From positions 1,277,000 to 1,340,999 of the forward strand of contig CP070821.1 of assembly GCA_020344335.1 (NCBI GenBank): a stretch of DNA of 64,000 bases. Reading direction: 5' to 3'. Every line of letters begins with the position of its first letter. The first letter of the stretch is position 1. Shown here one piece after another: positions 35,733 through 55,557 of the stretch. Made by a program: the position numbers and the translations under genes. The stretch comes from Gammaproteobacteria bacterium (GTDB lineage Bacteria; Pseudomonadota; Gammaproteobacteria; UBA9214). The notes under the pieces were generated by a model that did no database searches, had not been told where the DNA came from, and saw only the letters and a program-made list of their open reading frames with translations.

Positions 35733-36359
35733 TCACTTCAGCCTGTCAACATCGGGAGCGCACTCCACACCATCGATACGCCCGGAGCGAAGCGCATCAC
35801 CCTCGTTCCAGGATACCTCGAGATCAAAAACCGAACCCGGGGGAATCCCGTAGGCAGTCAGACCCCAGTTATAGTCACCGGGCAGGTACTCCTGCCGTGT
35901 CGGGAACATGCCCCAGCGGACCACGAGTTTCGCTGCATGGCTCGCCTGCTCTTCCGTCCATGTGGCAAGCCAGGATTCCTTCAGTTTGATACCTGTTTCT
36001 TTCCCGGCATGCCGCATTCGCCATCCCGTCAGATCGATCGCAACCGGCTGGCCGGTTCCCGACTTGCCGTTATTGCGTATGATCGTCTGGAACATGCAAC
36101 TGGTTGCCAGTTCCTCGATGACCTCCCGGGAAAACTCGTGATTCATGAACAGTGCCCGGGTCTGGTCCGGCAATCTTTGAATCAGCTCGATCTCGATATC
36201 ACCATCGGTAAAATGCCATTTTTTCAGGCCGGTGTCCTCGTTGACACCCTGCATGACATCTGCACGAACAAGCGCGGGCATCAGACTGCAAAGCAGGCAA
36301 AGCACCCGGAACGATTTGCCGCTATAGCGCAGCACTGGAGGGACGCGGTGCAGGACCAT
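35733..36359 (-). CDS. Hypothetical secreted protein
   Basis: About 208 aa from Met 36359 (MVLHRVPPVLRYSGKSFRVLCLLCSLMPALVRADV, signal-peptide-like). No family recognised. Sits between the secretin-N protein and tlpA-like genes on the same strand. Confidence 0.4.
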   Translation of the reverse strand: MVLHRVPPVLRYSGKSFRVLCLLCSLMPALVRADVMQGVNEDTGLKKWHFTDGDIEIELIQRLPDQTRALFMNHEFSREVIEELATSCMFQTIIRNNGKSGTGQPVAIDLTGWRMRHAGKETGIKLKESWLATWTEEQASHAAKLVVRWGMFPTRQEYLPGDYNWGLTAYGIPPGSVFDLEVSWNEGDALRSGRIDGVECAPDVDRLK

Positions 36360-36370
36360 AGCCGGTTTCG

Positions 36371-37228
36371 TCAGTTCGCCCCGCAGTCGATGCATTCCAC
36401 CTTGACCCGGATCTGCTGCGACTGCATCGACTGCTGTTGCTGTGAGCGCGCCAGGCCAGTACGACTGTCCTTGCTGGCCGAATCGATGCCTCCGAGTACA
36501 ACCCACTCCCCCAGCCTGCCGCGGACAACGCTGCCGGCCCGCTGGATCTCGAAGGTTCCGGGTATCCGCCCGGGCCGGTCATCATGCTGAAGGATCTCCA
36601 GCAGGACCTCGGTTCCACTGATACGCGGAACCACGTAAAAACCACTGGTGACATCATGCAACTCGGTACCGTGTGGATAGCCGCCGTAGACCGGAACCCG
36701 TGACCCGGCATGTATCCAGGCCGGCCGACCTTCGAGCGCCTGGACCTGCTGTCCGGCACTGCGTTCCCCGAAGGCACCATGCCTGTAGACATCGAGACGG
36801 GCACGGGAATCCTCGGCCGGGCGCCCGGGGGAATTGATGCCCACCTGTCCGTCACCAATCCTGATATCCGCCCTGCCGGAATAACCCGACGCACGACCGG
36901 CATCTTCCCCGCTATTGCCTACTGTAATAATCAGTCGCCGTGGAGGGCGGTCAATCCGGACAAGCAACTCGCGTATCTCGCGCACCCGGTCCGGTGCCGC
37001 CTTGATTACCAGGTTATTGCCCATCCCGGTGACCGTGCCATCGGGACCGACCAGCGGCCTGACAACCGGTATTACTTCATTCAGGGTGGCCGCCCGAAGT
37101 TCGATTACCTCGATCGGATAATCGGCATATACAGGAATAAAGGACAGGAAAACTGTCAGCATGCAGCAAGCCAACCAGCGACTGCGGTAATGTGTCCTGG
37201 ATGCTTTCCGGAATGGCAGGTTCATCAT
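36371..37228 (-). CDS. Secretin N-domain (NolW-like) containing protein
   Basis: 285 aa, N-terminal signal/anchor. The segment IEVIELRAATLNEVIPVVRPLVGPDGTVTGMGNNLVIKAAPDRVREIRELLVRID resembles the secretin N/STN domain. No C-terminal secretin pore domain. Confidence 0.5.
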   Translation of the reverse strand: MMNLPFRKASRTHYRSRWLACCMLTVFLSFIPVYADYPIEVIELRAATLNEVIPVVRPLVGPDGTVTGMGNNLVIKAAPDRVREIRELLVRIDRPPRRLIITVGNSGEDAGRASGYSGRADIRIGDGQVGINSPGRPAEDSRARLDVYRHGAFGERSAGQQVQALEGRPAWIHAGSRVPVYGGYPHGTELHDVTSGFYVVPRISGTEVLLEILQHDDRPGRIPGTFEIQRAGSVVRGRLGEWVVLGGIDSASKDSRTGLARSQQQQSMQSQQIRVKVECIDCGAN

Positions 37229-38804: not shown

Positions 38805-38914
38805 TCCGAATTCTCACAGGATGGTGTAGAGGTCAGATTCCGGGAAAGAGACCAGCGTCATCCCGTGTCCGCAGAACCATCGACCCGTCCAGGCGACAGA
38901 TCCGGTCAAGGCGA

Positions 38915-39586
38915 TCAGCCCTGGTGCTTGATTGCCTCTACACTAAGACAGAGTTTCACGGTATCACTCACCACACTGGAAAGAGTGTCCATACCAAAAT
39001 CGGATCGGCGAATGGATGTCGTGGCCTTGAACAAGACCACGTCGGTCTCGCCGGCAAGGTCTTCGCTAATATTCGTCAGCTCTACGTCAAAGTGTACCCG
39101 CCTGGTTTCCCCGCGCAGGGTCAGGTCGCCAGTCAGGATTGCTGACCGCTCACCGGTCCATTCAAAACCGGAACTGACAAACAGGATTTGCGGAAAATTC
39201 CCGGCATCAAAAAAGCGTTTACCCTTGATAACGGAATCTACGACGGCATTGTCCGTTTCCAGGCTGGCCGTGTTCACGGCTACCATGGTCTGCCCATCGC
39301 TGCCGTCCGGGGTACCCAGCGCCAGGCCGCCCTGGAATTCCGTGAAAGTGCCGGAAACCTCGCGCAACTGGCTGTCCACGCAAAATCCGACTCGCGAGGA
39401 ATCCTTGCGTATGCGATACAGGTAGCCGTCATCGGCCGCAGACAACATACGGCTGACCAGGGATTCCTCCACCACGCCATCCTGGAAAGGCGAACAGAGG
39501 TCATCTTCGACAGCCATGGCCGGCACTGACACCAGCAATACCGATATGACCAGAGCCAATCGTTTCGGCTTTTTGATCAACAACAT
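38915..39586 (-). CDS. YceI-family periplasmic protein
   Basis: 223 aa with signal peptide and YceI-like lipid/polyisoprenoid-binding beta-barrel pattern (GTFTEFQGGL... LTLRGETRRVHFDVEL). Confidence 0.8.
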   Translation of the reverse strand: MLLIKKPKRLALVISVLLVSVPAMAVEDDLCSPFQDGVVEESLVSRMLSAADDGYLYRIRKDSSRVGFCVDSQLREVSGTFTEFQGGLALGTPDGSDGQTMVAVNTASLETDNAVVDSVIKGKRFFDAGNFPQILFVSSGFEWTGERSAILTGDLTLRGETRRVHFDVELTNISEDLAGETDVVLFKATTSIRRSDFGMDTLSSVVSDTVKLCLSVEAIKHQG

Positions 39587-40686: not shown

Positions 40687-41093
40687 TGTGTGGCGGCCGC
40701 TTTTCTGCTGCGATATTCGAACAATATCCCGGTAAGCCAGTCACCGGTTGCCAGCTCGCGCCCGTCCTCCTCCACAATGGTGTACAGCTTGCCGCTTGCC
40801 AGGCTGCGCGTGGCGGTCAACCGGATAAAATCATCAGCCGACTCGATGTCATCACGAAAGTGTTCGAATTTTCTGCGCATGTGAGCGGCTGCCTCTGTCG
40901 CAGTATAACGACGGCCATTCCGCAGAAAAGTTAATCCGGACTGGCTGACATAATCCAGCAAATAGTCGATTGTCTGCTGCAGCGTCGTTTCCCGGGGTTC
41001 TGCACCGGCGCCGGCGGCTAGCAGCAACAGCACGGCAAACAGGACAACGTTGCGGCAAGTAGCAGTCTGTCTCATTGGCTTATGATTGTTCAT
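40683..41093 (-). CDS. DUF5329-like secreted protein
   Basis: 136 aa with signal peptide; family assignment by resemblance only. Confidence 0.45.
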   Translation of the reverse strand: MNNHKPMRQTATCRNVVLFAVLLLLAAGAGAEPRETTLQQTIDYLLDYVSQSGLTFLRNGRRYTATEAAAHMRRKFEHFRDDIESADDFIRLTATRSLASGKLYTIVEEDGRELATGDWLTGILFEYRSRKAAATQ

Positions 41094-41235
41094 TCAAACA
41101 GGCACGGGCCCGGCAGCATCCATAACCAGCGAGGTTGCACCCCGGACATTCCGGTATTCTCGGTCATCTTTGGAACAGACCCTGCAGCAGCAATTGCACA
41201 CCGCCCGCAACGAGGATGAAACGGTGACGAAACGG

Positions 41236-41862
41236 TTACCAGTAGGCCAGCAGCTGGTTGTCCTCGATCTTGTGCTCGAATTCGTTGAGCGGCCGGTTAC
41301 CCGTTTCCACGCATTCGCCGGTTGCCACGTCAAATGCCCATTTGTGCTTCGGGCATGTAAGGCGCGTCCCTTCCAGCGACAGGTGCGGGATATTGGTCAC
41401 CTGGTGGGGGCAACGGCTGTCATAAACGCGCAGGTTGTTTCCCTCACGGTAGATGAACAGGCTGCGCCCGTCGCAGTCCTTGTAGCTAATCTCCTTGGAT
41501 GCAATCTCATCCATGGAACATACGCTGTGCCAGGTCGGCTCGGCAAACAGATTTTCGGGACGAAATTCCGGGATATCCATATCCAGCAGGATATCCACTG
41601 CCCACACGATCTTTGCCAGTCCAAGCGTCGGAAAAGCCATCAGCAGTGCATCGAGCACCTCGTTGGGACTTGCCCCGTTGTGCAATGCCCGGCTCAGGTA
41701 CTGACGGAAACCGGCCTCGGTCTGCGCATCCACCTTGGTAATCACCGAGATCAGGTCACGGGTACGCGTGTCCAGGTTCTTGCCTGCCTCTTTCAGGAAT
41801 TTGAAGTAGGGGCCGATCGCGTCCGGCCGCGCGGCAACCAGGTAATTCAGGGCATCACTCAT
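41236..41862 (-). CDS. Carboxymuconolactone decarboxylase (AhpD-like) domain fused to a Rieske [2Fe-2S] domain
   Basis: 208 aa. N-terminal CMD/AhpD-like helices; C-terminal CPH-x16-CPKH Rieske ligand pattern (CPHQVTNIPHLSLEGTRLTCPKHKWAF). Confidence 0.75.
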   Translation of the reverse strand: MSDALNYLVAARPDAIGPYFKFLKEAGKNLDTRTRDLISVITKVDAQTEAGFRQYLSRALHNGASPNEVLDALLMAFPTLGLAKIVWAVDILLDMDIPEFRPENLFAEPTWHSVCSMDEIASKEISYKDCDGRSLFIYREGNNLRVYDSRCPHQVTNIPHLSLEGTRLTCPKHKWAFDVATGECVETGNRPLNEFEHKIEDNQLLAYW

Positions 41863-42033
41863 ACAGTTCTCCAGTCACGGTATCCAAGCCGGGCAATAGT
41901 AATGGCTCCGTTGCCCGGAGTACACCATATCCCCGCGAACAGCGCGGATGAATAGCCACACGTGCTGTGTACTGCAATTGCATGCCGATTTCTGAGAAAA
42001 TCGCCAGCTTCCCTGACTCGGAATACGGCAGCC

Positions 42034-42492: not shown

Positions 42493-43368
42493 ATGCATAC
42501 CTTACTTTACATATCCCAGGCTCTTGGGCTGGTCGCCCTCTTTTCGTTGATCTGGCTCATCATACGCGCCTTCAAAAAACACATCCTGTGGGGACTCGCC
42601 GTCTTGTTGCTGTCCCCGATCAGCGCGCTGTTTTTCGGTATCAAGTACTGGAGGGACGAAAAGAAGCCGTTCCTTGCCTACATGAGCTCGTTTGGGGTCG
42701 CGACTGGTCTGGCGGCGTATGTGTTCACGGCATGGGGGGGCTGGGAAGTTGTGAACACGGCACTCAATGTCAACGAGGGGATCCACTCCGAAAAACTGAC
42801 GGAACAGGAGGCACTCGACTTCATGCATGCAAACCTCCGGTTTCTCAAGCATGCCAGCCCCAACGAGGAAGATCGCAGGAATGTGGAAATGATGCAGAAG
42901 TTCCTGCAGCAGTACGAGTCGGGAATGTCCGATGCCGACAGGAAAAAAATGCAGGAAGAAATCATCAACATGATGGAAAACGAGGATCTGAGTCCGGCAC
43001 AGCGCCGGGAACTGAAACACCTGCGCAAGCAGCTGAACTTGAGCGAAGCGGAAAGCACCGCGAAAAACCCGGAGGTCGCCAAACCCACCCTCACCGAGGA
43101 CGCCAGCCGCACACTGTCCAAGCGACCCAGCACCAGAAAAGTGAACTACCGGGCTGATTACCAGGAGATTGAAATCTCCGAAGCCGGCAAATATATAGGG
43201 AAAACCTTCAAGGTCACCCGCAAGAACAGCGACGAGCGCCAGTGCAGGCTGATTGGCAGTTCACCAGGCAGACTGCGGTTCGAACAGCGGGGTCGTGGCG
43301 GCACATTCACCTTTGAATACAAGCACAGTGATATCGAGAAACTGAAACTGCTTGCCAGCCTGGAATAA
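42493..43368 (+). CDS. Hypothetical membrane protein (3 N-terminal TM helices plus charged coiled-coil C-terminal domain)
   Basis: 291 aa; no recognisable family. Confidence 0.45.
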   Translation: MHTLLYISQALGLVALFSLIWLIIRAFKKHILWGLAVLLLSPISALFFGIKYWRDEKKPFLAYMSSFGVATGLAAYVFTAWGGWEVVNTALNVNEGIHSEKLTEQEALDFMHANLRFLKHASPNEEDRRNVEMMQKFLQQYESGMSDADRKKMQEEIINMMENEDLSPAQRRELKHLRKQLNLSEAESTAKNPEVAKPTLTEDASRTLSKRPSTRKVNYRADYQEIEISEAGKYIGKTFKVTRKNSDERQCRLIGSSPGRLRFEQRGRGGTFTFEYKHSDIEKLKLLASLE

Positions 43369-43586: not shown

Positions 43587-44207
43587 GTGACCATGCAGCA
43601 AAACCTTCCACTGGCAGACCGGATACTGGATACCGCCCTGGCAATCGCCGAAAACGGCTCATGGGAAGACCTGCAATTGCATGCAGTGGCCGCCAATCTT
43701 GATATCCCCCTCGAGCGGATCCGGGAATACTATGCGCAGAAGGACGACCTTGCCGAGGCATGGTTTGACCGTGCCGACCGGAGACTGCTTTCCTGGCAAC
43801 CGGAGGCGGAATTTTACGAGCAACCGGAGTACACACGCCTGCGGCAGGTCATCATGCACTGGCTCGAGGCATTGGAGCCGCACCACCGCATTACCCGCGA
43901 AATGCTGTACTACAAACTGGAACCCGGACATATCCACCTGCAGGCACTCGGTGTTATGCGCATCAGCCGTACCGTGCAATGGTTCCGGGAAATGGCCCGA
44001 TTGCAGGCCTCCTCACTCAAGCGCATTGTCGAGGAAACGGTGGTTACCGGGATCTACCTCGCCAGCTTCGGTCGCTGGCTGCTGGATGATTCACCACACA
44101 GAAGTGACAACACCGAATCCTTTATGGCAAGGGCGCTTGGGTGCCTGCAGCGCCGGGACAGCGCACGGAATAACGGTCCTGAAAGAAAACCGGATCCACC
44201 GGCGTGA
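43587..44207 (+). CDS. TetR/AcrR-like transcriptional regulator (tentative)
   Basis: 206 aa; the N-terminal about 50 aa (LADRILDTALAIAENGSWEDLQLHAVAANLDIPLERIREYY) resembles a TetR HTH. Confidence 0.45.
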   Translation: MTMQQNLPLADRILDTALAIAENGSWEDLQLHAVAANLDIPLERIREYYAQKDDLAEAWFDRADRRLLSWQPEAEFYEQPEYTRLRQVIMHWLEALEPHHRITREMLYYKLEPGHIHLQALGVMRISRTVQWFREMARLQASSLKRIVEETVVTGIYLASFGRWLLDDSPHRSDNTESFMARALGCLQRRDSARNNGPERKPDPPA

Positions 44208-44253
44208 CAAGCCGGCACGACTGGCAGACAACAGTACGCGGTCTTCGGCCGGG

Positions 44254-44640
44254 TCAGACCTCTTTCCCGATCAGCTCCACCTGGTAGCCATCCGGATCCT
44301 CGATAAAGGCAATGATCGTCGTACCGGCATTCATGGGGCCGGCTGCGCGAATCACCTTGCCGCCACGCTCTTTCAGTTCCTCAACGGCCTCGTAGACATC
44401 ATCGACCTCAATGGCAATGTGGCCGTAACCCTCACCGAGATCATAGTGGTCAGTGTCCCAGTTATGGGTCAGCTCGATGACGGTATTATCCGACTCATCC
44501 CCGTAGCCCACGAATGCCAGGGTGAACTTTCCATCCGGATAGTCCTGCTGCCGCAACAACTGCATACCCAGCACATTGGTGTAGAAATCGATCGAGCGAT
44601 CGAGGTTGCCGACGCGCAACATGGTGTGAAGCATTCGCAT
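44254..44640 (-). CDS. gloA: Lactoylglutathione lyase (glyoxalase I)
   Basis: 128 aa from Met 44640, [26 protein letters not shown]... near-canonical GloA. ORF reaches 44706. Confidence 0.9.
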
Positions 44641-44662
44641 CCGATTACCCTCCGTATGTGTC

Positions 44663-45877
44663 TTAGGTGCGTTTCCGGCTCGAACCGATACGCAACCGCA
44701 ATGCATTCAATTTAATAAATCCCTCGGCATCCTGCTGGTCATACGCCCCGGCATCCTCCTCGAACGTGGCAATGCGTTCGTCAAACAGGCTGTCGGATTC
44801 CGAGCGGCGCCCGACCACAGTCACATTCCCCTTGTAGAGTTTCAGCCGTATGTCCCCGTTGACGTGCTCCTGCGAGGCATCGATCATCTGCTGTAACAGA
44901 CGGCGTTCCGGACTCCACCAGTAACCATTGTAGACAAGGCTGGCATAGCGCGGCATGAGTTCATCCTTCAGGTGAGCGGCCTCGCGGTCCAGCGTCAGCG
45001 ATTCCATGGCACGATGCGCCTTCAACAGGATGGTCCCGGCCGGCGTTTCATAACAGCCACGTGATTTCATGCCCACGTAGCGGTTTTCCACGATATCCGT
45101 GCGTCCCACGCCATTGGCACCACCCAGCTTGTTGAGGATCTCCATGACCGCTCCCGGGCTGGCGGACTTGCCTTCGATGGCGACGGCATCACCGTGCGCG
45201 AATGTGATCTCGATATAGGTCGGCTCGTCCGGTGCCTTTTCCGGTGCGACGGTCCATAGCCACATATCCTCTTCCGGTTCCGTCCAGGGGTCCTCGAGAA
45301 TGCCGCCCTCATAGGAAATATGCAGGGAATTGGCATCCATTGAATACGGCGACTGCTTGCCTTTCTTGTGTTCCACCGGGATACCGTGCTGCGCGGCATA
45401 TTCGAGCAGCTTCTGCCGCGAGGTCAGGTCCCATTCGCGCCACGGGGCGATAATGCGGATCTCCGGATTCAGCGCATAGGCACCGAGTTCGAAGCGCACC
45501 TGGTCATTGCCCTTGCCGGTGGCACCATGCGCAATGGCATCGGCACCGGTCTCCCGGGCGATTTCCACCAGCCGCCTGGCAATCAACGGCCGTGCGATCG
45601 AGGTGCCCAGCAGGTATTCACCTTCATAGAGCGCGTTGGCACGAAACATGGGAAAGACATAATCACGTGCAAACTCTTCCCTGAGCGTCTCGATATAGAT
45701 TTCCCGGACACCCAGAGCCTGTGCCTTGGCACGTGCCGGTTCGATCTCCTCGCCCTGGCCGATATCGGCCGTAAAAGTGACGACCTCGCAGTCGTAGGTT
45801 TCTTCCAGCCACTTGAGAATGACCGAGGTATCCAGCCCGCCGGAGTAGGCGAGGACGACTTTATTAATGGACGACAT
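44663..45877 (-). CDS. argG: Argininosuccinate synthase
   Basis: 404 aa from Met 45877; [11 protein letters not shown]-loop, full ArgG body. ORF reaches 45970. Confidence 0.93.
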
Positions 45878-48548
45878 TGCTGACTTTCGCCTTTTTCCGG
45901 CTGCGGCGCAGGCGTGACAACAGGCGCCGTGCCAGGTCGCCAAACAGCTCGGTCTGGGTGGGATGGGCATGGATGGCTTCGGCTACCTGTTCCAGGGTCA
46001 GGCCTGCTGAGACCATCATAATGGCTTCACCAATCAGTGTGTCGGCATGGTCGGCCAGAAAATGCACACCAACGATCCGGTGTGTCGCCTTGTCGGCAAC
46101 CATCTTGATCATGCCATGTGTTTCATTGTTGATCATGGCCTTGGCATCGATACTCATCGGTACCTTCACCTCGACGGCATCAACCCCGTTCGCCCTGGCC
46201 TGCTCCACTGACAGACCCACAAAGGCCGCCTGCGGACGCGAGAAGATCACCCCGCAGTCCTTGTCCTGATCGTACTTCATGTTCTCGCCAACAATAGTGG
46301 TCGCGGCTACCCTGCCCTGTTGCGCCGCGGTGTGTGCCAGCATCAGACCGCCAATCACATCACCGACAGCGAAAATATGCGGCACGCTGGTGCGGCAGCG
46401 GCTGTCCGTGGTAACCACACTGCTGTCGCTGGCCACGCCGGCCGCTGCCAGGTCGAGGTCATCGAGTACCGGGCGTTTACCGGTCGCCATGATGATGTAG
46501 TCAACTGTCAGGTTGCGTTTCTTGCCGTCCGCATCGCTGTATGCGAGTTTCATGGCCCCCGGTGCCCCGCCGATCCTGCTGACAGCAGCGGAGGTTTGCA
46601 CATCCAGTCGCGGCTCGTCATTCAGTATGGCGGCCAGGGTGCCGGCGATTTCCGATTCGACCTCGGCGAGGATACGTTCCTGCGCCTCGAGCAGGGTGAC
46701 CTTGCTGCCGAAGTCCTGGAAGATCTGGGCCATTTCCACACCAATGGCCCCGGCACCGATTACCGCAAGCCTTTTCGGCGGTGCTTCCAGTGCCCACACG
46801 GTATCCGATGTCAGCACGCCGCCGCTTTCCAGCCCCTCGTGCGCGCCGGGGATCGGCGGCACGAACGGCGGTGCACCGGTAGCGATGACGGCGCAGCCGA
46901 AACTGACGACGTCTTTCCCGACCGACTCCGGGACCTCGGCACGCGTGTGCGGATCCGCCTGGTTGGTGGACTTGTTAATGGCAATATGGTGATCGTCAAC
47001 AAAACGGCCGAAGCCCTGGATATAGTTGATGCGCACACCCTTGTCGGTCTTGAGCGCCATTTCTCCCCGGGTTTCGAGTACCTTGCGACGGTGTGCCTCC
47101 AGATCCTGCCAGACCAGTTTGGCCTTGCTGGTGCCGGTCACACCGAGGCTGGCATCCTCCGCCCGGTCACGGATTCGGTCCGCCGCTGCACGCCAGGCCT
47201 TGGAAGGGATGCAGCCACGCCACAGACATTCGCCTCCCGGGAACGGGGAATCGTTGATGAGGGCAACTTTCAGCTTGTGCGCCACCAGATCACGAGCGCA
47301 GTCTTCACCGCCCGGACCGCCACCGATGACGACCACGTCGTAATCCCAGTCGCCCTCGGGAATCGCCGGACCGCCGGGACCCATCCAGTCGAATGGTTGC
47401 TCAACCAGGCCCTTCAGTGAATACAGGTATTTTGCAACATCGGCGCCAGTGACAACACGGTGGTCCGCAGTAATGGTGAAGGCACTGCCCTTCTCGGTAT
47501 TCGAGGAGATCGCCAGGATCGTGGCCAGACCCGGTGTCGCAATGGCGTCAAAGTAACTGACATCGAACATGCCCATATTGGAAATCTGGAACGTCGCCCC
47601 GGTAAATTCCTCGGGATTCAGATGGCGGGTACGGGCGCGCGCTACGAGGTCTTTCCAGTCGTTGTTGAGCTCGTCCAGTTCACGTGATTCACAGTTGCGC
47701 AGTATTGGCACCACCAGGCCACCATCATCGGCCGCGACCGCCATGCCAATATCCACCTGGTCACGCTCGATTAGCTTGTTGTCCGGCTGGTAACACCAGT
47801 TCATCCTGGGGTGCTGCTGCATGGCCAGTCCGCAGGCCTTGGCAATCGCGACGGTAACCGAGATACCTGCCTGCTTGGCCGCACTCATCAGGGTCTCGAG
47901 ATGGATATGCGAGGTCACCCGGAAGGTCGGCATCGTGATCGACGCCGCCATGGCGCGCGCCATGGCCTTTTCCATGGATTTCATCGGCCGGCCAGTACCC
48001 GGCACGGCGACTTCATACGGGGCCGGAGCACGCTGGATATCCGTTGCCGTGATCACGGCGTCCGGGCCGGAACCGGCGATGCGATCCAGGTCGGCATTCA
48101 CCAGGCCGGCAAGCTTGCGTGCCAGTGGCGAGGCCTTGCCACCTTGCGGGCGCGGCGCCGGCCGCGCGCCGGAGTTAGCCGCACGAACAGCCCCCGCAAC
48201 CGGTGTTTGTACCGGCACCGGTGCGGCATCCGCCTGCTCGGCCGGTGCGGCTTCGGTCACCGGCTGCGGGCGCTGCTCTGCCTCGCTGTCGACGACCTCG
48301 TCGGGAGATTCAACCAGGTAGCCTATGGGGTGCGTGACCGCCACCACGGTATCGACGGGCGCAATCGGTCCGGAGAGGTAGCCGTCACGAAACACTTCTA
48401 CATCCATGACCGCCTTGTCGGTCTCTACCGTAGCGACGATATCGCCACGCGCGACCTGGTCACCGATATTTTTCTCCCAGCTGACGATGACACCTTCCGT
48501 CATGGTATCGGAAAGCTGCGGCATCTTGATGACGTAGGGTTCAGCCAT
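45864..48548 (-). CDS. Fused dihydrolipoamide acyltransferase (E2: lipoyl domain, E3-binding domain, catalytic domain) and dihydrolipoyl dehydrogenase (E3)
   Basis: 894 aa continuous ORF. The E2 catalytic DHRVVTGA motif near aa 385 is followed, after a short [12 protein letters not shown] linker, by a complete E3: [15 protein letters not shown] site and the redox disulfide [13 protein letters not shown]. Confidence 0.8.
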
Positions 48549-48605
48549 TAGGCATTGATCCTTGTTTGTATGTGGGCATCACTGCCGGCCGCAGAAGCCA
48601 TGCAC

Positions 48606-49586
48606 CTAGATGCCAAACATTTTGCGCACCGCTTCGACGACGTCATTGGCATCCGGCAATACCGCCCTTTCCAGTGCGTGGTTGTAGGGAATCGGTACAT
48701 TCAGGGCCGACACCCGGACCGGTGCGGCGTCCAGTTCGAAGAAACACTCCTCGTTGAGTATCGCCATCACCTCGGCACCCACACCGACTGCCGGCTCGGC
48801 CTCCTCGACAATGATTGCGCGATGCGTCTTGGTGACTGAATTGCGGATACCCTCGCGGTCCAGCGGGCTCAGGGCAAACAGGTCGATCACCTCCGCCTCG
48901 ATACCGTGATTTCTCGACAGCAAGTCGGCTGCCTCCAGGCACCAGTGCACGGAAATGTTGTATCCGAACAGGGTAACGTCCCTCCCCTCACGGGCGATTT
49001 CGGAACCCTCGAGGGGATGAAAATATTCCTTCTCCGGGACCTCGCCTTTCATGTTGTACATGAGTTCGTGCTCATTGATGAACACCGGGTCATTGCAGCG
49101 CACGGCCGATTTCAGCAGGCCGTAGGCCTGGCGCGGATTCGATGGCGTGACGACGCGCAGCCCGGCAATGCCCATGAACACCTTCTCCATGCGTGCCGAG
49201 TGCTGCGAGCCCAGCTGGTGCGCGGTACCTCCCGGTGCCCGCACCACGATGGGGGCAGAAAGCTGTCCGCCGGACATGTACCGTACCTTGGCTGCCGTGT
49301 TGAACAGCTGGTCCATGGCCAGCCAGGCAAAATTCACCGACATGATCTCGATAATCGGGCGCACCCCCAGGAAGGAGGCACCGATCCCCAGACCGGTAAA
49401 CCCGTTCTCGGAAATCGGCGTATCGATGACGCGCTCCTGCCCGTACTTGTCATACAGGCCCAGCGTCGCCTTGTAGGTACCGCCGACCACGCCGACATCC
49501 TCGCCCATCACAATCACCATGTCATCGTTGGCGAGCTCCTCGTCATGCGCGCGGCGCACGGCTTCCCAATACATGATTTCGTGCAT
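48606..49586 (-). CDS. 2-oxoacid (pyruvate/acetoin) dehydrogenase E1 component beta subunit
   Basis: Transketolase-like E1-beta (VIVMGEDVG ... RVIDTPISE). Preferred start Met 49586 (MHEIMYWEAV); ORF reaches 49685. Confidence 0.88.
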   Translation of the reverse strand: MHEIMYWEAVRRAHDEELANDDMVIVMGEDVGVVGGTYKATLGLYDKYGQERVIDTPISENGFTGLGIGASFLGVRPIIEIMSVNFAWLAMDQLFNTAAKVRYMSGGQLSAPIVVRAPGGTAHQLGSQHSARMEKVFMGIAGLRVVTPSNPRQAYGLLKSAVRCNDPVFINEHELMYNMKGEVPEKEYFHPLEGSEIAREGRDVTLFGYNISVHWCLEAADLLSRNHGIEAEVIDLFALSPLDREGIRNSVTKTHRAIIVEEAEPAVGVGAEVMAILNEECFFELDAAPVRVSALNVPIPYNHALERAVLPDANDVVEAVRKMFGI

Positions 49587-49587
49587 C

Positions 49588-50580
49588 TTAGGGTACTCCG
49601 CCACGGACCCAGGGGTCATTCTCCGCAAGCACGTAGCGTTCCACTCCCGATACATGCGGCTCGGGTGATTCTTCGGCAAAGGCAATCACCTCGTTCTCGA
49701 TCTGGTCGAGAATCTCGGTATCCATGTTCTTGAAGTCTTCCCGCGTCATCTTGCCTTCCTCGATCAGGCGGTCGCGCAGCATGATGACCGGGTCACGCTT
49801 GCTCCACATGCGCTCTTCTGCCCTGGCGCGGTAGGCATTGGAATCCGACATCGAATGACCGCGGTAGCGATAGGTCATGAGTTCCAGGAAATACGGCCCC
49901 TTGCCCGAGCGCACATGCCGGATGGCCCTGGTGGCGGCCTTGTAGACCAGTTCGACATCCTGGCCGTCCTCCTGGCGGGATGGAATGCCGTAGCCGGAAA
50001 CACGCTTGTACTGGTCAACGACCGCCGTGGATCGGTCGATGCGTGTTCCGATCCCGTAATGATTGTTTTCACATACATAAAGCACCGGCAGATTCCAGAG
50101 CTTGGCCATGTTCAGCGACTCGTGGAAGGTGCCCTGGTTGTTGGCGGCATCGCCCAGAAAGCAGATGCAGATTTCCTCGCCACCCTGCATCTGGATCGCC
50201 TTGGCAATGCCGGCGGCCAGCGGGAAGGGCGCACCAACCAGTGCATAGCCACCCATGAAGCGGTTCTTGACATCGAAAATATGCATGGAGCCACCACGGC
50301 CCTTGCTGACGCCGGTCTCCTTGGCGTACAGCTCGGCCATGACTTCCCTGGGATCGGCGCCCCACTTGATGGCATGGATATGATCGCGATAGCTGGTGAT
50401 CACATAATCCTTGCCAAAGTCGGCGGCTTCCAGCACACCGTGGGCACAGGCCTCCTCCCCGGGATAGAGGTGCAGGAATCCGCCGATATTGCGTTCGACA
50501 TAGGCCTCGTAGCAGCGCTCCTCGAAGCGCCGGGCAAACAGCATTTCTCTCAGCAGGCGTTTTTTTCTCTCGATTTTCAT
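49588..50580 (-). CDS. 2-oxoacid (pyruvate/acetoin) dehydrogenase E1 component alpha subunit (TPP-binding)
   Basis: 330 aa, TPP motif GDAANNQGTFHESLNMAKLWNLPVLYVCENNHYGIGT. Confidence 0.9.
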   Translation of the reverse strand: MKIERKKRLLREMLFARRFEERCYEAYVERNIGGFLHLYPGEEACAHGVLEAADFGKDYVITSYRDHIHAIKWGADPREVMAELYAKETGVSKGRGGSMHIFDVKNRFMGGYALVGAPFPLAAGIAKAIQMQGGEEICICFLGDAANNQGTFHESLNMAKLWNLPVLYVCENNHYGIGTRIDRSTAVVDQYKRVSGYGIPSRQEDGQDVELVYKAATRAIRHVRSGKGPYFLELMTYRYRGHSMSDSNAYRARAEERMWSKRDPVIMLRDRLIEEGKMTREDFKNMDTEILDQIENEVIAFAEESPEPHVSGVERYVLAENDPWVRGGVP

Positions 50581-50758
50581 TCGGCTTGGCCTGATTGTAG
50601 AGTGCCCGGGGCCTGATTACTGACGACTGAGTCCGCTCCGTGCGCAGTTTCGAAACAGGAGAAAGGCCCTCTCCCTGAATGCAGGGAGACAGCGGTATCC
50701 GAAAGACAGCAAGCGCGATATGATCAGTGTTTTGCGTTAACAGGTCAAGGCACAAAGT

Positions 50759-52276
50759 ATGGAAATCCCCTACCGGCACACAGAAAATATCAAGACAAAT
50801 CAACATACAACAGCGGCCCGCGGGAAGCATCTCGACGCCCACCGGGTAGCATTGCTGCTGTTGCCGGAGAATCCGCGCAAGCCCCATTGGGAGCAGTTAC
50901 CCCATGGATCCATCCTGAAGCGGCGCTTCCTTGCAATGAAGCGTCGTGACAAGAGCCGGAACCGGCTGACCACCGACCTGCCGAACCGCAATGCGACACA
51001 TACCCTCATACAGGCCATCGATCCGGCAGCGGACACCTTCGAGATACTCACGACGGCACGCGAGCTGGCTGCCGCGGTACGCGAACACGATCCGGCGGCA
51101 GTTCTGGTCCAGGTCACGGGGTTTGCATCGGCCACGAGCGAACGCCTGGTCGAGAGCCTTGTGACCGCCCTGCTGTCCGTGGCCTGCCCGATGCCCAGTT
51201 TCAAGAGCGAGCCAGCACCTGCCGCAAGACTAAACCGCATCGAAGTCTACGGGCTGGAGGAGAAAACCGATCTGGCCGCCGTCCGGGCGGAAGTCATTGG
51301 TAACCACCTGGCACGCTGGTTGTCCGCGCTGCCGTCGAGCGAACTCACGCCGACGAGCTATCGGGAATTCGTGAAGACACTGGCCGGCAGGGAGGGCTGG
51401 CAGATGAACTTTCTGGACACGAAGACACTGGCGCGAAAAAAGGCCGGTGCCTTCCTCGCCGTCGCACAGGCCAGTCCGGTTGCCGACGCCGGCATCATCC
51501 GCTTACGTTACCGGCCCCCAACGCGCGGTGGCAGACGCCTGGCCCTGGTCGGCAAGGGCATCTGTTTCGATACCGGCGGTGTGAATGTAAAACCGGCACG
51601 CCACATGAATGGAATGCATGAAGACATGCAGGGCAGTGCTGTCGCACTCGGCACCCTGCTCGCACTGAGCCGTCTGGAAACAGCACATCCGGTCGACTGC
51701 TGGCTGGCACTTGCCCAGAACCACATCGGCAGCAAGGCCTACAAGCCGAACGATGTGGTGACGGCCAGCAACGGAACCACCATAGAAGTCATCCATACCG
51801 ACGCCGAGGGACGCATGGTACTGGCCGACACCCTGGTGCAGGCCAGCAAGGAGAAACCGCACACCCTCATCGATTATGCAACCCTGACCGGTGCCTGCAT
51901 CTATTCGCTGTCATCCCGCTACAGCGGTGTATTCAGCAACCGGCCGGCACTGCACGCACCCCTGATTGCCGCCGGGCAGGACAGCGGTGAGCGTGTCTGG
52001 CCATTCCCGCTCGACAAGGATTTCGATGAATCCATCAAGTCAACCATTGCCGACACCAAGCAATGCACCCTCGAAGGTGATGCCGATCATATACTCGCCG
52101 CGCGGTTTCTCAGCCGCTTCGTGGATACAGACATTAACTGGATCCACGTAGACCTGTCCGCGAGCCATCACAAGGGCGGCCTGGGACACATCCCGACCGA
52201 TACGACCGGATTCGGGGTGCGCTTTTCGCTCAATCTGCTGAGACAGCAGGGCGTGCTGGAGAAAACATGGAACTGA
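50759..52276 (+). CDS. M17 leucyl aminopeptidase family protein
   Basis: NTDAEGR-type active-site motif ([13 protein letters not shown]) and Zn/Mn ligand pattern. The roughly 60-aa basic N-terminal extension may mean the true start is downstream. Confidence 0.75.
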
Positions 52277-55002: not shown

Positions 55003-55557
55003 ATGACGACCACACCCGAACTCACCGAGCAGATCCTGCAATCACACTCCGGGCTGATCCATCGGGTGGTTATGCACTGCAATAATCCCGGCTCGGTACC
55101 CGACATGGAGGAAGTATTGCAGCAGGCCGAGGAAAACGAGTGGACCCGGCTGGTTGCGGCGATCCGTGACATCATGTCGGGTAACCGGGACGAATCCATA
55201 CTGCTCGGTCTTGATGATGAAGACCGGGTCATTATCGAGTCTATCCTGCGGGGCTTGCAGGATCCGGGCACCCTGCCTGATTTACAGGCCGACTTTGATT
55301 CGGACATGGCAGCGCCCGGAATTGCCGGGCTGATTCATGCATCCCGGAGCGGTAATGCACAGGCCCTGCATATTATCGCCAACATGGCCAAGCAGATGCT
55401 GCAGGTCGGTGGCGACATGGGGATCCTGGCGGGACGTATACGCCCGCTGGTCGAAGGGGAGCGGGATGCCGGCAAGCTGTCAGAGAACATGACCGAGAAA
55501 GGCCAGAAACTGATCACGGACATCCTTGAAGAACTGCTAAAACTCGAGGGCAGTTAA
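55003..55557 (+). CDS. Hypothetical acidic cytoplasmic protein
   Basis: 184 aa, no family recognised; located between rnt and grxD. Confidence 0.4.
   Translation: MTTTPELTEQILQSHSGLIHRVVMHCNNPGSVPDMEEVLQQAEENEWTRLVAAIRDIMSGNRDESILLGLDDEDRVIIESILRGLQDPGTLPDLQADFDSDMAAPGIAGLIHASRSGNAQALHIIANMAKQMLQVGGDMGILAGRIRPLVEGERDAGKLSENMTEKGQKLITDILEELLKLEGS

What the first reader, a model, noticed from the sequence alone, without database searches (positions are those of the whole stretch)
45864..50580. 2-oxoacid dehydrogenase operon with a natural-looking in-frame E2-E3 fusion (894 aa)
The E1-alpha, E1-beta and E2 arrangement is the heterotetrameric-E1 type (acetoin/pyruvate/branched-chain dehydrogenase-like). 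The third ORF continues without a stop from a complete E2 (one lipoyl domain, E3-binding domain, catalytic DHRVVTGA) through a 12-aa Gly/Pro linker into a complete dihydrolipoyl dehydrogenase ([18 protein letters not shown] redox disulfide, C-terminal interface domain). Separate E2 and E3 genes are the rule. A covalent E2-E3 fusion would fix E3 stoichiometry on the core and is unusual. It could alternatively be a sequencing indel that fused two adjacent genes.
Basis: seen in the sequence. Interest (0 to 1): 0.55.

Follow-up and report, generated by a model that had tools for sequence, protein, structure and literature searches.

The report
Conserved natural E2-E3 fused pyruvate dehydrogenase subunit
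The 894-residue gene is a real, evolutionarily conserved fusion of the E2 (acetyltransferase) and E3 (lipoamide dehydrogenase) subunits of a pyruvate dehydrogenase complex; it is not a sequencing error, but the same fusion is already present in at least 80 other species in public genomes, so it is a curiosity and not a discovery.

Summary
One stop-free ORF (45864-48548, minus strand, 894 aa) carries a lipoyl domain, an E3-binding domain, an E2 catalytic domain, a 12-residue linker and a complete E3. It follows E1-alpha and E1-beta genes that pass NCBI's pyruvate-dehydrogenase cut-offs. The indel alternative is refuted. All 80 related species loci retrieved (64-88% identity, including the cultured Thiohalobacter thiocyanaticus) have the E2 and E3 motifs in one frame. 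Linker-length differences are whole codons. Nucleotide diversity across the linker sits at third codon positions (0.08/0.06/0.37), as in the flanking domains. All 64 loci with enough upstream DNA keep the order E1a-E1b-E2E3. Unrelated E2-E3 fusions with different linkers also occur in distant lineages, including archaeal MAGs, again behind E1a-E1b genes. From memory only (the paper library held nothing), this fusion was described for Thiobacillus ferrooxidans in 1997. Inferred mechanism: E3 at 1:1 with E2, E3 dimerisation cross-linking E2 trimers, and the E3-binding domain left free for E1. No solved structure covers both halves, and my AlphaFold model was too poor to use. Verdict: a new member of a known kind, of low to moderate interest.

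The parts
49588..50580 (-). E1-alpha subunit of pyruvate dehydrogenase (330 aa)
   Evidence: Pfam E1_dh 8e-84. TIGR03182 PDH_E1_alph_y scores 402 bits against a cut-off of 393.85.
48606..49586 (-). E1-beta subunit (326 aa from ATG 49586, directly after the E1-alpha stop)
   Evidence: Pfam Transket_pyr and Transketolase_C. NF006667 PDH E1 beta scores 373 bits against a cut-off of 321, with the match starting at aa 34 of the longer TTG ORF. The orthologue in L001 is 326 aa.
45864..48548 (-). Fused E2-E3 gene (894 aa plus stop)
48321..48530 (-). Lipoyl domain (aa 7-76), with lipoyl-lysine K45 in ETDKA at 48414-48416
   Evidence: Pfam Biotin_lipoyl 8e-13. The ETDKA motif is invariant in alignments A1 and A2.
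48033..48137 (-). Peripheral subunit-binding (E3_binding) domain, aa 138-172
   Evidence: Pfam PF02817 scores 29.8 bits against a cut-off of 23.7.
47379..47990 (-). E2 acyltransferase catalytic domain, aa 187-390, with Ser323 (ISNMG), His363 (DHR), Thr367 and the C-terminal hydrophobic W388-M389
   Evidence: Pfam 2-oxoacid_dh 2e-46. In the alignment to human E2p 3b8k, query residue 386 pairs with chain residue 235 of 239, so the E2 half is complete to its normal C-terminus.
47343..47378 (-). Junction linker [12 protein letters not shown] (aa 391-402)
   Evidence: Nearly invariant in 77 of 81 sequences. Indels are whole codons only. Codon-position diversity is 0.08/0.06/0.37.
45939..47342 (-). 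E3 dihydrolipoyl dehydrogenase half, aa 403-870: FAD site GGGPGG, redox disulfide C441/C446, NAD site GAGAIG with E621, and the His862-Glu867 dyad in HAHPTQTE
   Evidence: Pfam Pyr_redox_2 6e-60 and Pyr_redox_dim 1.5e-27. The best NCBIfam hit is TIGR01350 at 358 bits. The best PDB hit is 1ebd at 1e-59.
45867..45938 (-). Conserved Arg/Lys-rich C-terminal tail of the E3 half (aa 871-894)
   Evidence: Conserved in all complete related loci and in the stand-alone paralogue P0123. Its function is unknown.
44663..45877 (-). argG (argininosuccinate synthase), whose start codon overlaps the last 14 nt of the E2-E3 gene; probably co-transcribed
   Evidence: Pfam Arginosuc_synth and Arginosuc_syn_C. Sequence read. 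The adjacency is conserved in related loci.
50720..50748 (-). Weak sigma-70-like promoter match in the E1-alpha/pepA intergenic region
   Evidence: 9 of 12 hexamer matches. The count of such sites in the region is no higher than in shuffles, so this is only a candidate.

Best explanation
This is a three-gene pyruvate dehydrogenase operon (E1-alpha, E1-beta, E2-E3) of an uncultured gammaproteobacterium. Its relatives in the retrieved records include Thiohalobacter and Thiogranum and MAGs labelled Ectothiorhodospiraceae. The last gene encodes a single polypeptide that carries both the acetyltransferase core subunit (E2) and the lipoamide dehydrogenase (E3). Shown here: the fusion is real, ancestral to a large clade and kept in frame by selection, and the residues needed for lipoylation, acetyl transfer and lipoamide re-oxidation are present. 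Inferred from established knowledge of these complexes: E1 (alpha2beta2) docks on the retained peripheral subunit-binding domain and acetylates the lipoyl-lysine. The E2 domain passes the acetyl group to CoA. The covalently attached E3 then re-oxidises the dihydrolipoyl arm and reduces NAD+. E3 is active only as a dimer, because its His-Glu dyad comes from the partner chain, whereas E2 is a trimer. E3 domains from different E2 trimers must therefore pair. The natural place for this is across the two-fold axes where the E2 C-terminal hydrophobic 'knob' (here W388-M389, immediately before the linker) contacts the neighbouring trimer. This would give a fixed 1:1 E2:E3 stoichiometry, and E1 would no longer compete with E3 for the binding domain.
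For: Domain architecture and PDH-type E1 genes. Conservation: at least 120 protein clusters of 868-902 aa with both domain sets at 79-90% identity. Eighty species loci at 64-88% identity cover query residues 1 to about 873-893, among them the cultured Thiohalobacter thiocyanaticus Hrh1. All 81 loci hold DHR..G and CLWRGC in one stop-free frame. Selection: the DHR-to-CLWRGC distance is 79 aa in 77 sequences, 78 in 3 and 88 in 1, so all differences are whole codons; diversity at codon positions 1/2/3 is 0.08/0.06/0.37 in the linker against 0.09/0.06/0.40 in the flanks. The E1a-E1b-E2E3 order holds in 64 of 64 loci with enough upstream DNA. The E2 half aligns to the last residues of solved E2p chains and the E3 half from residue 5 of 1ebd, so both halves are complete. 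Catalytic motifs: Ser motif in 80 of 80 loci and His-Glu motif in 77 of 80. There is no second E2, E3 or lipoyl gene in the 64-kb window.
Against: There is no protein-level evidence here that the 95-kDa polypeptide accumulates uncleaved. The E3 half scores below the TIGR01350 equivalog cut-off (358 against 408.8 bits) and belongs to a divergent CLWRGC subfamily that also occurs as a stand-alone protein (P0123). The window protein has Thr where the clade has Asn in DHRVVNG. The assembly model, with E3 dimers on two-fold axes and the binding domain reserved for E1, is inference only. The AlphaFold monomer model was unusable (mean pLDDT 50.9) and no multimer prediction was possible.
Confidence: 0.82

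Rival explanations
1. The fusion is an artefact: a sequencing or assembly indel joined two adjacent genes, E2 and E3.
For: A single-base indel near a stop codon can fuse adjacent genes. No read data were available to check.
Against: The same uninterrupted frame is found in 80 independently assembled species genomes and in at least 120 protein clusters. There is no remnant stop or start at the junction. Linker-length changes are whole codons only, and third-position-dominated variation runs across the junction.
Confidence: 0.01
2. The gene is fused, but the cell also makes free E3 by internal translation initiation or by proteolysis in the linker. Functionally there would then be a pool of unattached E3, for example for glycine cleavage.
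For: In-frame ATG (M389) and GTG (V405) codons lie at the junction, and a GGGA sequence lies 7 nt upstream of the GTG. Gly/Pro-rich linkers can be protease-sensitive.
Against: There is no convincing Shine-Dalgarno sequence before M389. M389 and the W-D-Y codons that create the GGGA are explained by protein-level conservation: M389 aligns with the hydrophobic C-terminal end of solved E2p chains and the W-D-Y residues lead into the first E3 strand. No data show a shorter product.
Confidence: 0.07
3. The E3-like half is not a lipoamide dehydrogenase for this complex but a diverged flavoprotein disulfide reductase with another substrate or role, such as a lipoyl-dependent antioxidant relay.
For: It falls below the TIGR01350 cut-off, and MerA and other family models also score highly. 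It has an atypical CLWRGC motif and an unusual basic C-terminal tail. A stand-alone paralogue sits next to an operon that already has its own E3 (L082). A relative is fused to a lipoyl domain and a stretch that looks by eye like a carboxymuconolactone decarboxylase (AhpD-type) domain (P0126; no family search was run on it).
Against: TIGR01350 is still the best-scoring family, and the best solved relatives are bona fide E3s. The redox disulfide, the His-Glu dyad and both dinucleotide sites are intact. The operon and the window hold no other E3. Fusion to E2 in 80 species is most simply explained by the E3 role.
Confidence: 0.05
4. The complex acts on a substrate other than pyruvate, such as acetoin or branched-chain 2-oxoacids.
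Against: E1-alpha passes the PDH_E1_alph_y equivalog cut-off and E1-beta passes the PDH E1-beta cut-off. The E2 half is closest to mitochondrial-type PDH E2 (TIGR01349; 3b8k, 7uom and 6zlo). The neighbourhood is housekeeping (argG, pyrC, pepA, pyruvate kinase), not a catabolic island.
Confidence: 0.05

Closest known systems
E2-E3 fused subunit of the Thiobacillus (Acidithiobacillus) ferrooxidans pyruvate dehydrogenase complex (Powles and Rawlings, Microbiology 1997; recalled from memory, not retrievable with the paper tools)
   Same: A chemolithoautotroph-type proteobacterial PDH operon with E1-alpha, E1-beta and one ORF that joins E2 to E3. The A. ferrooxidans genome paper lists exactly three genes for pyruvate dehydrogenase, AFE3068-70 (PMC2621215), which fits a fused third gene.
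   Different: Orthology could not be tested, because no Acidithiobacillus sequence was reachable. The window protein has one lipoyl domain; most relatives (52 of 80) have two.
Fused E2-E3 orthologues in Thiohalobacter thiocyanaticus Hrh1, Thiogranum, Sulfuriflexus, and Granulosicoccaceae and Ectothiorhodospiraceae MAGs
   Same: Same operon order, the same junction sequence [27 protein letters not shown], the same CLWRGC E3 subtype and the same basic tail, at 64-88% identity.
   Different: The window and its nearest relatives (25 loci) have lost one of the two lipoyl domains. The window has Thr in place of Asn in DHRVVNG. argG overlaps the 3' end of the gene.
Conventional alpha2beta2-E1 PDH complexes (Geobacillus stearothermophilus, mitochondria) with separate E2 and E3
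   Same: The same domains and chemistry. The E2 half is closest to mitochondrial 60-mer E2p and the E3 half to G. stearothermophilus E3 (1ebd).
   Different: In those complexes E3 is a separate gene product held non-covalently on the peripheral subunit-binding domain, in competition with E1 and at less than one E3 per E2 (established knowledge). Here E3 is covalent at 1:1.
Independent E2-E3 fusions in other lineages (cluster representatives P0131, P0132, P0133, P0135, P0137, P0168, P0174, P0183, P0193)
   Same: The same lipoyl, binding-domain, E2 and E3 order in one chain of 838-928 aa. Where checked, they also lie behind E1a-E1b genes.
   Different: Only 28-34% identical, with canonical DHRxxDG and CLNxGC motifs. 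Their linkers are unrelated, with 66-95 aa between the two motifs. The nearest relatives of their E3 halves are unfused E3s, which suggests separate fusion events. Two come from archaeal MAGs.
Lipoyl-domain-E3 fusions such as Neisseria meningitidis P64k
   Same: E3 covalently joined to another component's domain. P64k structures (1bhy, 1ojt) are among the E3 hits.
   Different: Those carry only an N-terminal lipoyl domain on E3, with no binding domain and no E2 catalytic core.

Membership tests
Pyruvate dehydrogenase E1, heterotetrameric alpha2beta2 type | E1-alpha matches the PDH-specific equivalog model above its curated cut-off | tested here: met
   TIGR03182 scores 402.0 bits against a cut-off of 393.85.
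Pyruvate dehydrogenase E1, heterotetrameric alpha2beta2 type | E1-beta matches the PDH E1-beta model above its cut-off and is adjacent to E1-alpha | tested here: met
   NF006667 scores 373.3 bits against a cut-off of 321. The ATG at 49586 directly follows the E1-alpha stop.
Dihydrolipoamide acyltransferase (E2) | Lipoyl domain with the lipoyl-lysine in a DKA motif | tested here: met
   Pfam PF00364 at aa 7-76. ETDKA with K45 is invariant in A1 and A2.
Dihydrolipoamide acyltransferase (E2) | Peripheral subunit-binding domain | tested here: met
   PF02817 at aa 138-172, above its cut-off.
Dihydrolipoamide acyltransferase (E2) | Catalytic domain with the active-site His of DHR and the Ser of (T/I)SN(L/M)G | tested here: met
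   PF00198 at 2e-46. H363 and S323 are present; the Ser motif is found in 80 of 80 relatives.
Dihydrolipoamide acyltransferase (E2) | Asp or Asn four residues after the catalytic His (DHRxxDG or DHRxxNG) | tested here: not met
   The window has Thr367 (DHRVVTG). Relatives have Asn, and three have Tyr. The consequence for activity is unknown.
Dihydrolipoamide acyltransferase (E2) | PDH E2 equivalog model above its cut-off | tested here: not met
   TIGR01349 scores 241.9 bits against a cut-off of 445. It is the best E2 model, but the domain is diverged and shortened.
Dihydrolipoyl dehydrogenase (E3) | FAD and NAD dinucleotide-binding GxGxxG motifs, CxxxxC redox disulfide, and a C-terminal His-Glu dyad in the dimerisation domain | tested here: met
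   GGGPGG, GAGAIG with E621, C441-C446 and H862...E867 are present; PF07992 and PF02852 match.
Dihydrolipoyl dehydrogenase (E3) | Equivalog model TIGR01350 above its curated cut-off | tested here: not met
   357.9 bits against a cut-off of 408.8. It is the top-scoring family, but the E3 half belongs to a divergent CLWRGC subfamily.
Dihydrolipoyl dehydrogenase (E3) | NAD+-dependent oxidation of dihydrolipoamide | not testable with these tools
   Requires an enzyme assay.
Natural E2-E3 fused PDH subunit (T. ferrooxidans type) | E2 and E3 in one reading frame, conserved among orthologues | tested here: met
Natural E2-E3 fused PDH subunit (T. ferrooxidans type) | Orthology with the published A. 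ferrooxidans protein | not testable with these tools
   No Acidithiobacillus sequence was among the returned hits. The 1997 paper and any paper citing it are absent from the library.
Natural E2-E3 fused PDH subunit (T. ferrooxidans type) | A single polypeptide of about 95 kDa in the cell | not testable with these tools
   Requires proteomics or a western blot.

The most novel reading that the evidence does not exclude
The conserved short linker places each E3 directly after the E2 C-terminal 'knob' that makes the inter-trimer two-fold contact. E3 dimers would then sit on every two-fold edge of the E2 cage (30 on a 60-mer, or 12 on a 24-mer), producing a PDH core architecture with obligate 1:1 E2:E3 that has never been visualised. 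In the same reading, the divergent CLWRGC E3 subfamily, with its conserved Arg-rich C-terminal helix, has a structural or regulatory role not seen in canonical E3s.
Probability: 0.25. Interest if true: 0.5.

Novelty: new member of a known kind. Interest (0 to 1): 0.22.

Why it matters
The result matters mainly as a correction and for annotation. The gene should be read as a bifunctional E2-E3 PDH subunit, whereas public records name its orthologues only 'FAD-dependent oxidoreductase' or 'dihydrolipoamide dehydrogenase'. Pathway reconstructions of these sulfur-oxidiser-like Gammaproteobacteria could therefore wrongly score PDH E2 as missing. Beyond that, a natural and widely conserved 1:1 E2-E3 fusion with no solved structure would be a convenient system for asking how E3 is positioned on 2-oxoacid dehydrogenase cores, and how E1 and E3 compete for the binding domain.

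Tried and rejected
Literature: eight full-text searches, one DOI look-up and one supplement search for the remembered 1997 T. ferrooxidans paper, or for any mention of E2-E3 fused PDH subunits, found nothing relevant. The only related item was that the A. ferrooxidans genome paper assigns three genes, AFE3068-70, to pyruvate dehydrogenase. Prior description therefore rests on my memory.

Structure: an AlphaFold2 model of the full protein, built from a 61-sequence alignment of relatives at 80% identity or more, gave mean pLDDT 50.9 and pTM 0.40. I judged it unusable, so I ran no fold search and drew no geometric conclusion.

Signals: promoter-like and terminator-like sites in 44000-51000 are no more frequent than in shuffles. 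Only the site at 50720-50748 is sensibly placed.

Internal start: I looked for in-frame starts with a ribosome-binding site at the junction and found nothing convincing.

Second E3 or E2: a tblastn of the three parts against the whole window found none. The rest of the genome could not be examined.

The indel artefact and a non-PDH substrate were considered and rejected for the reasons given under the rival explanations.


Full report
THE OBSERVATION

The minus strand of the window carries a stop-free ORF at 45864-48548 encoding 894 residues. Pfam places five domains along it, all above gathering thresholds:
- a lipoyl domain at aa 7-76;
- an E3-binding (peripheral subunit-binding) domain at aa 138-172;
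- a 2-oxoacid dehydrogenase acyltransferase catalytic domain at aa 187-389;
- a pyridine nucleotide-disulfide oxidoreductase domain at aa 403-745;
- its dimerisation domain at aa 766-870.

The E3 His-Glu dyad is also present, in HAHPTQTE.

Two genes lie upstream on the same strand. E1-alpha (49588-50580) scores 402 bits on TIGR03182 against a cut-off of 393.85. E1-beta scores 373 bits on NF006667 against a cut-off of 321. The real E1-beta start is the ATG at 49586, directly after the E1-alpha stop. The upstream TTG listed mechanically is not the start: the family match begins at residue 34 of that ORF, and the orthologue in a related contig is 326 aa.

IS THE FUSION REAL OR AN INDEL?

They are.
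- A search of the 5.8-billion-protein collection returned at least 120 cluster representatives at 79-90% identity. All are 868-902 aa and all carry both the E2 and the E3 Pfam domains.
- A scan of one genome per GTDB species found 472 candidate stretches. The 80 best (64-88% identity) all match the query from residue 1 to about 873-893. They include the cultured Thiohalobacter thiocyanaticus Hrh1, and MAGs assigned to Thiogranum, Sulfuriflexus, Granulosicoccaceae, Ectothiorhodospiraceae and Chromatiales.
- In every one of the 81 loci then held, the E2 motif DHR..G and the E3 motif CLWRGC lie in a single stop-free frame. The junction [27 protein letters not shown] is almost invariant.
- The distance between the two motifs is 79 residues in 77 sequences, 78 in three and 88 in one, so every length change is a whole number of codons.
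- Across the linker, nucleotide diversity at codon positions 1, 2 and 3 is 0.08, 0.06 and 0.37. Over the whole DHR-to-CLWRGC stretch, which includes parts of both domains, it is 0.09, 0.06 and 0.40. This is the signature of a translated, selected frame.
- All 64 loci with enough upstream DNA have E1-alpha, E1-beta and E2-E3 in the same order and on the same strand.

An assembly artefact is therefore excluded for all practical purposes.

ANATOMY OF THE JUNCTION

In the alignment to solved structures, query residue 386 pairs with residue 235 of the 239-residue human E2p catalytic domain, 3b8k. Query residue 404 pairs with residue 5 of the G. stearothermophilus E3, 1ebd. Both halves are therefore complete. 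The E2 part runs to its normal C-terminus (D-W-M-G, aa 387-390) and the E3 part starts at its normal N-terminus. Only about 9-12 residues ([12 protein letters not shown]) join them.

The hydrophobic W388-M389 occupies the position of the C-terminal hydrophobic residues of canonical E2s. From established structural work on E2 cores, those residues form the 'knob' that inserts into the neighbouring trimer across the two-fold axis.

Two smaller peculiarities stand out. The catalytic domain lacks some 14-17 residues just before the DHR motif compared with solved E2p chains. The window protein, and its 90%-identical relative P0001, has Thr367 where almost all relatives have Asn and three have Tyr. 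From my own knowledge, Asn at this position is normal for E2p (Asn614 of Azotobacter vinelandii E2p), so the clade is canonical and the window is a minor variant.

THE E3 HALF

TIGR01350 (dihydrolipoyl dehydrogenase) is the best-scoring NCBIfam model, but at 358 bits it stays under its 408.8-bit cut-off. This probably explains why NCBI names the orthologues only 'FAD-dependent oxidoreductase'.

In a distance analysis of the 50%-identity cluster representatives, the E3 half groups with a small set of CLWRGC-type proteins, well separated from ordinary E3s. The set contains three kinds of protein:
- the two-lipoyl fused form, P0121;
- a stand-alone 487-aa protein, P0123, which keeps the IPEGDWD N-terminus and the basic tail, and lies divergently next to a conventional E1a-E1b-E2-E3-LplA operon;
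- P0126, in which a lipoyl domain, a CLWRGC-type E3 and a C-terminal stretch that looks by eye like a carboxymuconolactone-decarboxylase (AhpD-type) domain are joined (no family search was run on it).

All members end in a conserved Arg/Lys-rich amphipathic tail, FGD(L/M)[13 protein letters not shown]. I have no explanation for it.

Because all catalytic elements are intact, no other E3 lies in the operon or the window, and solved E3s are the closest structures, I take the E3 half to be the lipoamide dehydrogenase of this complex.

HOW IT MOST LIKELY WORKS

The chemistry is that of any PDH complex, and this part is inference from family membership. The likely consequences of the fusion are also inferred.
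1. E3 is present at exactly one copy per E2 chain, not at sub-stoichiometric levels.
2. In complexes of the alpha2beta2-E1 type, the peripheral subunit-binding domain binds E1 and E3 in competition (established for G. stearothermophilus). With E3 covalently attached, the retained and conserved binding domain can be devoted to E1.
3. E3 is active only as a dimer, while E2 is a trimer, so E3 domains from different trimers must pair. The linker starts immediately after the two-fold 'knob'. The number of two-fold edges (30 on a 60-mer, 12 on a 24-mer) also equals half the number of chains. E3 dimers sitting on the two-fold edges are therefore the simplest model.

I could not test this model. The AlphaFold2 monomer model was poor (mean pLDDT 50.9), because only close relatives could be used in the alignment, and no multimer tool was available. 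No PDB chain covers both halves.

COMPARISON WITH WHAT IS KNOWN

From memory, an 'unusual E2-E3 subunit fusion' was reported for the PDH complex of Thiobacillus ferrooxidans by Powles and Rawlings (Microbiology, 1997). The paper tools hold neither that paper nor anything citing it. The A. ferrooxidans genome paper does assign three genes (AFE3068-70) to pyruvate dehydrogenase (PMC2621215), which fits. I could not test orthology.

Among the 150 best 50%-identity cluster representatives, at least a dozen further fused proteins of 838-928 aa appear at 28-34% identity. They have canonical DHRxxDG and CLNxGC motifs and unrelated linkers. The nearest relatives of their E3 halves are unfused E3s. Two come from Promethearchaeota and Bathyarchaeota MAGs. 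The two I looked up lie behind E1a-E1b genes in quite different neighbourhoods. The fusion has therefore probably arisen several times.

Within the window's own clade, 52 of 80 species have two lipoyl domains (about 1007-1046 aa). Twenty-five, including the window's closest relatives, have one (881-893 aa).

CONTEXT

The neighbourhood is housekeeping:
- argG lies immediately downstream, and its ATG at 45877 overlaps the last 14 nt of the E2-E3 gene;
- next come a glyoxalase and an unassigned ORF with no Pfam match at 1e-5;
- pepA and a dihydroorotase-like amidohydrolase lie divergently upstream;
- pyruvate kinase is 7 kb away;
- arginine-biosynthesis genes lie near the window's end.

The same synteny is seen in a related Ectothiorhodospiraceae MAG. 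argG follows E2-E3 in most related loci, sometimes with overlapping or abutting codons.

VERDICT

The feature is the normal state of this gene in a large group of sulfur-oxidiser-like Gammaproteobacteria. It recurs elsewhere and was, to my knowledge, described decades ago, so it is a new member of a known kind. What remains of interest is structural: no natural E2-E3 fusion has been visualised, and the divergent E3 subfamily with its basic tail is uncharacterised. I score the interest at 0.22.

Noticed in passing
window 45864-45877 (-): The argG start codon (ATG at 45877) lies inside the last 14 nt of the E2-E3 gene, which suggests co-transcription or translational coupling of arginine biosynthesis with PDH. 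argG follows E2-E3 in most related loci. The gap ranges from -14 to about 1900 nt and is 5 nt or less, or overlapping, in about ten of them.
   Followed up: partly
window 45867-45938 (-), aa 871-894: The E3 half ends in a conserved Arg/Lys-rich amphipathic tail ([16 protein letters not shown]...) that, to my knowledge, canonical E3s lack. It is present in all complete relatives and in the stand-alone paralogue P0123. Its function is unknown.
   Followed up: partly
window 47448-47450 (-), Thr367: The E2 catalytic motif reads DHRVVTG here and in the 90%-identical P0001, whereas almost all other species have Asn (DHRVVNG or DHRVING) and three have Tyr. The effect on activity is unknown.
   Followed up: partly
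window about 47460-47520 (-), aa 345-362: The E2 catalytic domain is about 14-17 residues shorter than solved E2p chains just before the DHR motif (gaps in the alignments to 3b8k, 7r5m and 7uom). The short form is conserved in the clade.
   Followed up: no
L082 6001-7464 (protein P0123); protein P0126: The CLWRGC-type E3 subfamily also occurs in two other forms. One is a stand-alone 487-aa protein placed divergently from a conventional E1a-E1b-E2-E3-LplA operon. The other is a 797-aa protein that joins a lipoyl domain, the E3 and a C-terminal stretch that looks by eye like a carboxymuconolactone-decarboxylase (AhpD-type) domain (no family search run). This may hint at a lipoyl-dependent redox relay.
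   Followed up: partly
L011, L013, L054: Public MAG records titled 'Halobacteria archaeon' carry this gammaproteobacterial PDH operon at 80-84% amino-acid identity to the window. They are probably mis-binned or mislabelled contigs.
   Followed up: no
L024, L025, L054: The stop-free frame that contains the junction is shorter here (853, 818 and 669 aa), although tblastn covers query residues 1-873 or 1-888. There are frame breaks upstream of the junction, possibly assembly errors.
   Followed up: no
window 35733-36506 (-), 38865-39425 (+), 41086-41955 (+), 42493-43368 (+), 43587-44207 (+), 55003-55557 (+): Six sizeable ORFs near the operon have no Pfam match at E <= 1e-5. It was not checked whether they are real genes.
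   Followed up: no
loci L026-L081 compared with L002-L023: The number of lipoyl domains differs within the clade. Fifty-two of 80 species have two (about 1007-1046 aa) and 25 have one (881-893 aa), the latter including the window's closest relatives. This indicates loss, or gain, of one lipoyl domain.
   Followed up: partly
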